Source: a virus. From it: a stretch of DNA of 64,000 bases. Continued below: a report on this DNA, generated by a model with database tools. The stretch is not shown here. The stretch spans positions 72,445 through 136,444 of IMG/VR virus record IMGVR_UViG_3300032007_000018; one strand, 5' to 3'.

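What the first reader, a model, noticed from the sequence alone, without database searches (positions are those of the whole stretch)
31250..49250. An 18-kb GC-rich island (about 55 percent GC, versus about 33 percent for the rest) built from about 34 near-identical promoter cassettes, each driving one or two tiny genes
The unit repeats with remarkable regularity: gene, then a GC palindrome with an invariant CCCGGG (usually gCCCGGGc), then the A-tract GATTGTTAAAAAAnTAAC..TTTTnAAAAAA, then cTTGACA, 17 bp, TGcTATAcTATAAT, then AAAGGAGAT and ATG.

-35 boxes lie at about 31621, 32127, 32524, 32811, 33078, 33294, 33634, 33994, 34647, 35209, 35597, 36340, 36871, 37442, 38096, 38905, 39038, 39598, 40066, 40441, 40671, 41269, 42577, 43657, 44206, 44612, 45394, 45537, 46225, 46578, 47264, 47825, 48622 and 49008.

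The coding sequences are GC-rich while the promoters and UP elements are AT-rich, so composition alternates on a 100-500 bp scale. This is an extreme case of a one-gene-one-consensus-promoter early region and looks like a host-takeover or anti-defence gene arsenal. The compositional break from the structural module suggests either acquisition from a high-GC source or deliberate codon and TAG avoidance.
Basis: seen in the sequence. Interest (0 to 1): 0.85.

Follow-up and report, generated by a model that had tools for sequence, protein, structure and literature searches.

The report, continued
Best explanation
This is the early, host-RNA-polymerase-dependent module of a large siphovirus related to phAss-1. 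The phage comes from the rumen or gut and probably infects a Clostridia host. It reads TAG as glutamine in its late genes.

Shown:
- About 34 near-consensus sigma-A-type promoters (UP-like A/T tract, TTGACA, 17 nt, TGnTATAnT) lie on one strand.
- Each is followed at a fixed 29-32 nt by a strong Shine-Dalgarno and 1-3 small genes.
- These genes contain no TAG at all, so the same protein results whether TAG means stop or Gln.
- Each unit ends in a stem-loop. In the first 5 kb these are canonical terminators. In the remaining 13 kb they are a GC hairpin followed 2-6 nt later by (G)CCCGGG(C).
- The architecture is conserved across a large clade, while gene content is mostly lineage-specific and reordered. 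Homology blocks end at the cassettes.

Inferred:
1. The host RNA polymerase fires all units immediately after DNA entry. This gives a burst of small host-takeover and anti-defence proteins, a tRNA-Lys and small RNAs before any phage tRNA or suppressor exists.
2. The repeated promoter/terminator cassettes act like T4 PeSLs. They provide short homology at which gene cassettes are gained, lost and swapped.
3. The GC excess is an in-situ, largely synonymous property tied to expression class. TAG-free early and middle genes have GC3 of 0.49-0.66, while TAG-containing genes have about 0.23-0.25. It was not imported.
4. CCGG-core palindromes are a regulatory signal specific to this sub-clade. They are purged from early ORFs and kept only in the -35/-10 spacer of the first 8-10 promoters and after the 3' hairpins of later units. 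The most likely reader is a dimeric phage DNA-binding protein that shuts off the first block and insulates or blocks read-through in the second. Candidates are the conserved winged-helix paralogues at 39118 and 45643 and the two AbrB-like proteins.
5. The strong depletion of GATC, ACGT and TCGA specifically here suggests this DNA is exposed to host restriction before protection is established, as in T5 first-step-transfer DNA.
For: Promoters:
- 32 + strand sites at >=11/12 with TG (31 in the array plus the class-II site 49401).
- 75 promoter-like sites against 21.8 +- 4.6 in shuffles.
- Invariant TTGACA and TG, and fixed leader length.

Recoding:
- Late ORFs open only with TAG read as sense. 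The tape-measure-like gene is 3059 aa with 94 TAG.
- In-frame TAG is 0 in early genes and 168 in late genes. Early stop codons are TAA 34, TGA 12, TAG 0.

Identity:
- The capsid protein is 51% identical to phAss-1. That phage is described as TAG to Gln, about 136 kb, with a 3149-aa tape measure and a predicted Eubacteriales host (PMC10607447).
- phAss-1 has its own cluster of 16 GC-spacer promoters at 127.7-135.9 kb, abutting the PhageTerm-defined end, and an AT-rich structural block.

Clade conservation:
- L013, L015, L017, L020, L022, L026, L028, L030, L032, L034, L035, L036 and L037 all carry arrays (about 11-46 promoter matches on one strand per locus, depending on the scan pattern).

Fluid gene content:
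- Only about 6 core families are shared, and 16 of the 43 array genes have no homologue in 12 related loci (21 of the 47 ORFs in that table, which includes flanking genes).
- Gene order is rearranged.
- Blocks shared with L037 begin and end at CCCGGG or promoter cassettes.
- A promoter+tRNA-Lys cassette is inserted in the window relative to L013 and L037.

Composition:
- GC1/2/3 is 0.55/0.37/0.66 in early genes and 0.45/0.34/0.23 in late genes.
- Orthologue GC3 forms a continuum across lineages.
- Low-GC genes in the island sit behind AT-spacer promoters.

CCGG signal:
- 26 CCCGGG, all intergenic and all in the island, against about 3.6 expected.
- CCGG in early coding sequence is 1 against 23.2 +- 3.8 in synonymous shuffles. 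GGCC is 12 against 47.
- The spacer-CCGG block followed by an upstream-CCCGGG block recurs in the window, L037, L013, L015 and L017.
- A hairpin precedes nearly every CCCGGG.

Candidate readers:
- The 45643 protein was modelled at pLDDT 87. Its best structural matches are ArsR/SmtB, MarR and PerR winged-helix repressors.
- Two proteins match the AbrB/MazE fold family.

Restriction-site avoidance:
- GATC is 5 against 47 in early coding sequence and 0 against 11 in early intergenic sequence, but 58 against 79 in late genes.
- GATC and ACGT are depleted in the arrays of all 7 relatives tested and in the phAss-1 array.
- T5-like phages are restricted only through sites in first-step-transfer DNA (PMC10644984).
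Against: - There are no expression data. 'Early' rests on promoter type, TAG absence and analogy.
- The host is unknown. MAG bins holding relatives are taxonomically inconsistent, so 'host-like codon usage' could not be tested.
- Canonical intrinsic terminators are not enriched (34 against 25.7 +- 4.6). Most 3' hairpins in the 13-kb second part lack a U-tract, so read-through into long transcripts is possible.
- The distance from CCCGGG to the -35 is variable (27-57 nt), and CCGG sits at variable positions in spacers. That is unusual for a factor contacting RNA polymerase.
- The winged-helix family also occurs in lineages without CCCGGG, so it is not specifically tied to the motif. Foldseek E-values are weak (0.03-0.15).
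- Block ends in intergenic cassettes are partly expected whenever whole genes are the unit of selection.
- The phage's three most codon-biased late genes have GC3 of only 0.35. Simple translational selection therefore does not explain GC3 of 0.66 in early genes.
- The physical genome end of this phage was not determined.
Confidence: 0.7

Rival explanations
1. The island is a block acquired horizontally from a phage or bacterium with higher GC and not yet ameliorated.
For: There are sharp compositional steps at about 31.3 kb and about 50 kb. Most island proteins are ORFans.
Against: - The GC difference is mostly at third codon positions (GC3 0.66 versus 0.23, GC2 0.37 versus 0.34).
- Orthologues of the core early genes are present in all relatives, with GC3 ranging continuously from 0.24 to 0.85.
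- The same promoter, SD and cassette grammar is found in early regions of 32-37% GC.
- Another TAG-free block outside the island (52.3-60.25 kb) is also GC-enriched, with GC3 of 0.49.
- phAss-1 is 43-56% GC over most of its genome, with only the recoded structural block AT-rich.
Confidence: 0.06
2. CCCGGG with its preceding hairpin is a recombination site. It would serve as the crossover point for a site-specific recombinase or nuclease that inserts and excises gene cassettes, by analogy with integron attC sites, rather than as a transcriptional signal.
For: - Each gene unit ends with an imperfect hairpin plus a short palindrome.
- Several homology blocks shared with L037 run exactly from one CCCGGG to the next (41224-41764, 44581-45333).
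- Gene content is highly fluid.
Against: - No integrase or recombinase was found in or next to the array.
- Every cassette carries its own promoter, unlike integron cassettes.
- Relatives with equally fluid arrays (L028, L030, L034, L035) have no CCCGGG.
- The hypothesis does not explain CCGG inside the promoter spacers of the first block.
Confidence: 0.12
3. The CCGG sites are epigenetic or restriction-related marks. A phage or host CCGG/CCCGGG methyltransferase would modify them. Methylation state would then tune promoter activity and distinguish incoming from replicated DNA. CCGG loss from ORFs would simply be restriction avoidance.
For: - CCGG and GGCC are depleted from early coding DNA together with GATC, TCGA and ACGT, a typical restriction-avoidance spectrum.
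- CCGG lies at variable positions within spacers, which suits a DNA-state effect better than a positioned protein contact.
Against: - Restriction avoidance would not leave 48 CCGG and 26 CCCGGG in the intergenic parts of the same 18 kb.
- No methyltransferase is encoded in the window.
- CCGG is only mildly depleted in late genes (9 against 15.6).
Confidence: 0.1
4. The high GC3 of the early region is a by-product of frequent recombination (GC-biased gene conversion in a hyper-recombining cassette array), not of selection on expression or translation.
For: - The array is the most mosaic part of the genome.
- GC3, not GC2, carries the signal.
- The capsid-like genes, which should be under the strongest translational selection, have GC3 of only 0.35.
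Against: - Equally mosaic arrays in L022, L028, L030 and L035 are 32-37% GC.
- Within every lineage, the most conserved (least exchanged) early gene, the winged-helix protein, has the highest GC3 (0.54-0.85).
- AT-rich genes sit inside the array behind class-II promoters.
Confidence: 0.12
5. The region is an assembly chimera or an engineered construct. Regular promoter-RBS-gene-terminator units and six-frame stop palindromes look designed.
For: The units are very regular, and there is a TTAGTTAATTAACTAA palindrome with stops in all six frames.
Against: - The same sequence with the same late/early junction is present in three independent assemblies from JGI, ENA and Logan.
- Thousands of diverged homologues and more than a dozen diverged arrays exist in rumen and gut metagenomes.
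Confidence: 0.01

Closest known systems
phAss-1 and the proposed Phassvirus group (Babkin et al. 2023, PMC10607447; GenBank OQ749652, 'Caudoviricetes code 15 clade')
   Same: - TAG read as Gln in structural genes.
- A tape-measure gene of more than 3000 aa.
- A homologous capsid protein (51% identity).
- A gut or rumen source with a predicted Clostridia host.
- A GC-poor recoded structural block next to GC-richer DNA.
- A cluster of consensus TTGACA-17-TGnTAnAAT promoters at one genome end, plus a second promoter class with an AT-rich spacer.
   Different: - There is no nucleotide-level similarity, so it is a different genus at least.
- The phAss-1 array is shorter (16 promoters in 8 kb) and has no CCCGGG.
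- The paper does not mention promoters, early genes or intragenomic GC structure.
- No suppressor tRNA lies in this window. phAss-1 has three elsewhere in its genome.
PeSLs (promoter-early stem-loops) of T4-type phages (Arbiol et al. 2010, PMC2839356; Comeau et al. 2014, PMC4122927)
   Same: - Composite terminator/early-promoter cassettes are repeated between small, mostly ORFan genes in a hyperplastic region.
- Relatives differ by insertion, deletion and replacement of genes between cassettes.
   Different: - The phage lineage (Firmicute siphovirus) and the sequence are unrelated.
- The array is one contiguous 18-kb run of about 36 units, not scattered hyperplastic regions.
- There is an extra GCCCGGGC element and CCGG-bearing spacers.
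- Recombination at the cassettes is inferred here, not demonstrated.
Host-takeover module of Bacillus phage SPO1 (26 genes in a 12.4-kb terminal region; Stewart et al. 1998, as summarised in PMC6873191)
   Same: - A cluster of small early genes with strong sigma-A promoters and strong ribosome-binding sites.
- Short operons in a Firmicute phage.
- Mostly proteins of unknown function.
   Different: - About three times more promoters, and mostly one gene per promoter.
- No protein homology to SPO1 gp37-60 was detectable with PHROGs.
- Location in a terminal redundancy is not established.
- No phage sigma factors were found in the window.
First-step-transfer (pre-early) region of T5-like phages (PMC10644984), and the early-injected region of Autographiviridae (PMC12455610; title and abstract only, seen)
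   Same: The early region is specifically poor in restriction sites while the rest of the genome is not. In T5-like phages, R-M systems work only through sites in first-step-transfer DNA.
   Different: Two-step or slow injection, terminal-repeat location and an injection stop signal are all untested here. T5 pre-early genes form two operons, not dozens of units.
[quoted passage not shown]
   Same: Recoded codons are confined to structural, lysis and late genes. Early functions are compatible with the standard code. Recoding is linked with low GC.
   Different: That work links low GC to recoding across genomes. Here the link holds gene by gene within one genome: TAG-containing gene sets have GC3 of about 0.23-0.25, and TAG-free sets have 0.35-0.66. 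That text has no occurrence of 'promoter' or 'early genes'.

Membership tests
phAss-1-like TAG-recoded siphoviruses (Caudoviricetes code 15 clade) | In-frame TAG in structural and packaging genes, which become intact when TAG is read as sense | tested here: met
   Minus-strand ORFs at 1-28775 open only under TAG recoding. There are 94 TAG in a 3059-aa ORF and 2-11 in most others.
phAss-1-like TAG-recoded siphoviruses (Caudoviricetes code 15 clade) | Homology of hallmark virion proteins to phAss-1 | tested here: met
   The capsid-like protein 18065-19171 is 51% identical over 92% of its length to phAss-1 (E 2e-93). It is 41% identical to Enterococcus phage EF1-type phages.
phAss-1-like TAG-recoded siphoviruses (Caudoviricetes code 15 clade) | Suppressor tRNA(CUA) genes | tested here: inconclusive
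   None is present in the 64-kb window; the only tRNA is tRNA-Lys(CUU). The source contig is 155 kb, and phAss-1 carries its suppressors far from its promoter array.
phAss-1-like TAG-recoded siphoviruses (Caudoviricetes code 15 clade) | Genus-level nucleotide similarity to Phassvirus | tested here: not met
   No megablast match of the island to any of 50,697 phage records. It is therefore a relative, not a Phassvirus.
T4-type PeSL regulatory cassettes | Composite stem-loop plus early sigma-70-type promoter, repeated many times | tested here: met
T4-type PeSL regulatory cassettes | Flank variable ORFan genes in hyperplastic regions; indel and replacement junctions between relatives lie at the cassettes | tested here: inconclusive
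   Gene content is variable and reordered. Block ends versus L037 fall at CCCGGG or promoter cassettes, and a promoter+tRNA cassette insertion was seen. No pair of relatives more than 95% identical genome-wide was available, and intergenic junctions are partly expected anyway.
T4-type PeSL regulatory cassettes | Occurs in T4-like myoviruses; sequence related to the T4 early promoter and stem-loop | tested here: not met
   The phage is a siphovirus-type relative of phAss-1, and the promoters are Firmicute extended -10 type. This is an analogue, not a member.
SPO1-type host-takeover module | Cluster of small early genes with strong sigma-A promoters and strong RBS | tested here: met
SPO1-type host-takeover module | Products shut off host DNA, RNA or cell-division functions | not testable with these tools
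   About 30 of 40 proteins have no PHROG match and there is no homology to SPO1 gp37-60. A second core family has no structural match.
SPO1-type host-takeover module | Located in the terminal redundancy | not tested
   The termini of this phage are unknown. In phAss-1 the array abuts the PhageTerm-defined end.
T5-type first-step-transfer region | Restriction sites are selectively absent from the first-entering early DNA | tested here: met
   GATC is 5 against 47 in coding and 0 against 11 in intergenic sequence of the island, versus 58 against 79 in late genes. ACGT, TCGA, CCGG and GGCC are also depleted. The same holds in 7 relatives and in the phAss-1 array.
T5-type first-step-transfer region | Two-step DNA injection with an injection stop signal and terminal-repeat location | not testable with these tools
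   Needs virion DNA ends and infection experiments.
Integron-like cassette array | Integrase next to the array; promoterless cassettes each ending in an attC site | tested here: not met
   No integrase or recombinase in or beside the array. Every cassette has its own promoter.

The most novel reading that the evidence does not exclude
The phage runs two 'dialects' in one genome as a timing device.

The first-expressed module is written so that the naive host can read it at once and cannot cut it. It uses the standard code, has no TAG, is rich in G/C-ending codons and is purged of restriction palindromes. It is governed by a private CCGG/GCCCGGGC operator code. That code is excluded from the ORFs and placed in the spacers of immediate-early promoters and behind the 3' hairpins of delayed-early units. 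A single phage DNA-binding protein could therefore switch off the first block and insulate the second.

The AT-rich late module, with TAG read as Gln, becomes readable only after the phage has installed its own decoding apparatus.
Probability: 0.25. Interest if true: 0.8.

Novelty: new variant of a known kind. Interest (0 to 1): 0.6.

Why it matters
Stop-codon-recoded gut phages are abundant, but almost none has been cultured. How they stage the switch from the host's code to their own is an open question.

This clade is very large: one early protein has 5939 homologues in public metagenomes. It offers an unusually legible early module:
- dozens of textbook promoters that mark the transcription units precisely
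- a clean separation between TAG-free, GC3-rich genes and TAG-containing, AT-rich genes
- a short palindrome (CCGG core) whose distribution looks like an operator code: absent from ORFs, present in the spacers of the first promoters and behind 3' hairpins

These are concrete hypotheses that can be tested without the host, by in vitro transcription, EMSA or DAP-seq, and metatranscriptome mapping.

The roughly 40 tiny ORFan proteins, the promoter-driven tRNA-Lys and the small RNAs are candidates for new host-takeover or anti-defence functions in Clostridia. The consensus cassettes could serve as strong, compact expression parts for Firmicutes.

The underlying kind of element, a multi-promoter early or hyperplastic region, is well known from T4, T5 and SPO1. 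This is therefore an extension of known biology, not a new principle.

Tried and rejected
1. Megablast of the 18-kb island against 50,697 phage records gave no match.
2. An exact scan of IMG/VR for the promoter core TTGACA-N15-TGCTATACTATAAT found only 5 single, unrelated hits. A protein-based scan of IMG/VR with the exonuclease found nothing. Relatives were found only through the metagenome protein collection and MAG contigs.
3. Rfam over the whole window, with permissive thresholds, returned only the tRNA. None of the ORF-less promoter-driven RNAs matches a known family.
4. Host assignment from MAG bins was rejected. The 18 loci sit in bins labelled Treponema, Endomicrobiaceae, Prevotellaceae, Bacteroidales, Mollicutes, Lachnospiraceae, Acutalibacteraceae and others, so binning is unreliable. 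Only a Clostridia majority can be noted.
5. I looked for an island protein whose presence tracks CCCGGG across lineages. None does.
6. I tested whether CCCGGG is part of the terminator stem. It is usually unpaired, 2-6 nt 3' of the hairpin. Canonical hairpin-plus-U-tract terminators are not enriched.
7. The 39650/42632 core family was modelled confidently (pLDDT 86), but has no meaningful match in the PDB (best E 0.67). There are no sequence matches to solved structures for either core family.
8. I tested the idea that phage tRNAs favour A/U-ending late codons. phAss-1 carries both UNN and CNN isoacceptors for Lys, Gln, Glu and Leu, so there is no clear bias.
9. I tested the CU-rich tail after tRNA-Lys as a specific antisense to early leaders. 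It pairs only slightly better with early leaders than with late ones (-17.8 versus -15.4 kcal/mol), because it is essentially an anti-SD sequence.
10. Pfam scans of the genes flanking the array looked for a methyltransferase, recombinase, sigma factor or RNA polymerase. None was found. The only hit of note was a GIY-YIG homing endonuclease at 60324-61151.

Full report
**What is there**

The window is a phage genome segment made of three compositional parts:
- 1-28775 is 34.8% GC and is transcribed on the minus strand.
- 31250-49250 is 48.4% GC (coding 51.3%, intergenic 43.5%) and is transcribed on the plus strand.
- To the right, 52.3-60.25 kb is 43.3% GC, followed by 34% again.

A pattern search and the consensus scanner agree on the promoters. 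The scanner lists 32 plus-strand sites in 31.0-50.5 kb that match TTGACA-16/17-TATAAT at 11 or 12 of 12 positions with a TG extended -10: 31 in the array between 31621 and 49008, plus the class-II boundary site at 49401. 35597 matches at 10/12. 38905 and 45394 have weak -35 boxes. The region holds 75 promoter-like sites against 21.8 +- 4.6 in shuffles.

In the 30 promoters with a 17-nt spacer, TTGACA and the TG are invariant. An A-rich tract precedes the -35. The ATG lies 29-32 nt after the -10 in most units, behind a GGAG-type ribosome-binding site.

The repeats are families at 61-85% identity, with a few pairs at 83-96%. They are not near-identical copies.

I count 36 units with 43 genes (35-220 aa, median 74 aa). 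One unit carries tRNA-Lys(CUU) with its own promoter. At least four units are promoter-driven stretches without ORFs.

**What phage this is**

Under the standard code the minus-strand region is shattered. When TAG is read as sense it resolves into long ORFs. These include a 3059-aa tape-measure-like gene with 94 in-frame TAG, where Gln codons are TAG 94, CAA 90 and CAG 18.

The capsid-like protein is 51% identical to phage phAss-1 and 41% identical to Enterococcus EF1-type phages. phAss-1 was described in 2023 as a 136-kb phage reading TAG as Gln, with a 3149-aa tape measure, 36 tRNAs and a predicted Eubacteriales host. That paper says nothing about promoters or early genes.

There is no nucleotide similarity to any deposited phage. 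The identical island, including its junction with the late genes, is present in three independent assemblies. This rules out a chimera or a construct.

**The island is the TAG-free early module**

Island genes end in TAA (34) or TGA (12), never TAG, and contain no in-frame TAG. Late genes contain 168. This fits the published model that recoded phages keep early functions readable in the host's code.

The compositional difference is largely synonymous. GC1/GC2/GC3 is 0.55/0.37/0.66 in island genes and 0.45/0.34/0.23 in late genes.

GC3 and TAG use go together gene set by gene set:
- 52-60 kb has GC3 0.49 and no TAG.
- 60-63 kb has GC3 0.25 and 12 TAG.
- Three capsid-like late genes have no TAG, GC3 0.35 and 92% AAG for Lys.

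Inside the island, the few AT-rich genes (43162-43546 at GC 0.35-0.37; 41865-42516 at GC 0.45-0.46) are the ones behind a second promoter class with an AT-rich spacer, TTGAyTTTnAAAAAAnTnTGTTATAAT. That class also heads the late operon at 28803 and closes the array at 49401.

**Related loci**

One island protein, a DEDD-exonuclease-like protein, has 5939 homologues in public metagenomes. I retrieved 13 related loci, at 42-95% protein identity, mostly from rumen and gut samples.

Every one carries the same kind of array, with about 11-46 consensus promoter matches on one strand per locus depending on the scan pattern. The array ends at a class-II promoter where that end was inspected (L013, L015, L022, L028, L034, L036).

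Their early regions range from 32% to 48% GC. GC3 of the shared genes forms a continuum: exonuclease 0.27-0.58, NT5C-like 0.24-0.70, winged-helix protein 0.54-0.85. The high GC of this island therefore arose in place in this lineage. It is not an import from a high-GC donor.

phAss-1 shows the mirror image. Most of its genome is 43-56% GC, and only the recoded structural block is 34-38%.

**Gene content is fluid while the grammar is fixed**

Only about six families are shared broadly:
- NT5C-like (34707)
- exonuclease (38158)
- the 39118/45643 paralogues
- the 39650/42632 paralogues
- a membrane protein (42040)
- 47532

Sixteen of the 43 array genes have no homologue in any of 12 related loci (21 of the 47 ORFs in that table, which includes flanking genes), and gene order is scrambled.

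Against the closest relative (L037, 95% exonuclease identity), the island is a mosaic of blocks at 69-98% identity. Block ends fall at the promoter or CCCGGG cassettes. Two blocks run exactly from one CCCGGG to the next.

In the window, a promoter+tRNA-Lys cassette is inserted into a unit that is continuous in L013 and L037.

This is the behaviour described for PeSL cassettes of T4-type phages. Here it is an inference, because junctions between genes are partly expected for any gene-wise mosaic.

**The CCCGGG element**

All 26 copies in the 64-kb window lie in the island and in intergenic DNA, against about 3.6 expected. Most read GCCCGGGC.

The element is not at a fixed distance from the -35 (27-57 nt). 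It is tied to the 3' end of the preceding unit. In most units it sits 8-28 nt after the stop codon and 2-6 nt after a strong hairpin that usually straddles the stop, and it is itself unpaired. These hairpins mostly lack a U-tract, and canonical terminators are not enriched overall.

Two further findings point to a signal rather than a by-product.

1. CCGG is almost absent from early coding sequence. There is 1 copy against 23.2 +- 3.8 in synonymous-codon shuffles, and GGCC is 12 against 47. GCGC and CGCG are not depleted. Intergenic CCGG is 48 against about 25 expected.
2. The first 8-10 promoters of the array carry CCGG or CCCGG inside the -35/-10 spacer, while later units carry CCCGGG upstream. 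This two-block order recurs in L037, L013, L015 and L017. L036 and L022 have only the upstream form. Six other lineages and phAss-1 have neither.

The simplest reading is an operator for a dimeric DNA-binding protein specific to this sub-clade. It would repress the first block by occluding spacers, and it would insulate or roadblock units in the second block. This reading is not shown.

Candidate readers are encoded in the array:
- The highly conserved 45643/39118 family was modelled at pLDDT 87 with a C-terminal winged helix. Its best structural matches are ArsR/SmtB, MarR and PerR repressors, though with weak E-values.
- Two proteins are AbrB/MazE-like.

No protein's distribution tracks the motif.

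**Early-region-specific avoidance of restriction palindromes**

Relative to synonymous shuffles, early genes are depleted in several palindromes:

| Palindrome | Observed | Expected |
|---|---|---|
| GATC | 5 | 47 |
| TCGA | 24 | 62 |
| ACGT | 7 | 32 |

GATC is also absent from the island's intergenic DNA (0 against 11). Late genes are only mildly depleted, with GATC at 58 against 79.

GATC and ACGT are depleted in the arrays of all seven relatives tested. GATC is depleted more in the phAss-1 array (5 against 34) than elsewhere in that genome.

In T5-like phages, R-M systems act only through sites in the first-step-transfer DNA. By analogy, this array may be the DNA that faces the host's nucleases before protection is in place. 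In phAss-1 the array abuts the PhageTerm-defined genome end. This is suggestive only.

**Function of the products**

Recognisable proteins are an NT5C-like deoxynucleotidase, an HD phosphohydrolase, the exonuclease, two AbrB/MazE-like proteins and a zinc-ribbon protein. About 30 of 40 proteins have no PHROG family. The second core family (39650/42632) folds confidently but has no structural relative in the PDB.

tRNA-Lys genes with their own early promoters occur in the arrays of four lineages, and one array also has tRNA-Tyr. Phage tRNAs have been reported to neutralise tRNA-cleaving defences (PMC11464382 and PMC11555353, titles and abstracts seen). That tRNA-Lys and tRNA-Tyr are the specific targets is my recollection of those papers. 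An anti-defence role is therefore plausible but untested.

**Verdict**

The 'early one-promoter-per-gene region with TAG avoidance' reading is supported. 'Acquired from a high-GC source' is not.

In kind, this is a multi-promoter early or hyperplastic region as known from SPO1, T5 and T4. It is therefore a new variant, not a new category.

The following appear undescribed and are directly testable:
- its density of units
- its conservation across a very large uncultured clade of recoded phages
- the gene-by-gene coupling of GC3 with TAG use
- the CCGG code
- the early-region-specific palindrome purge

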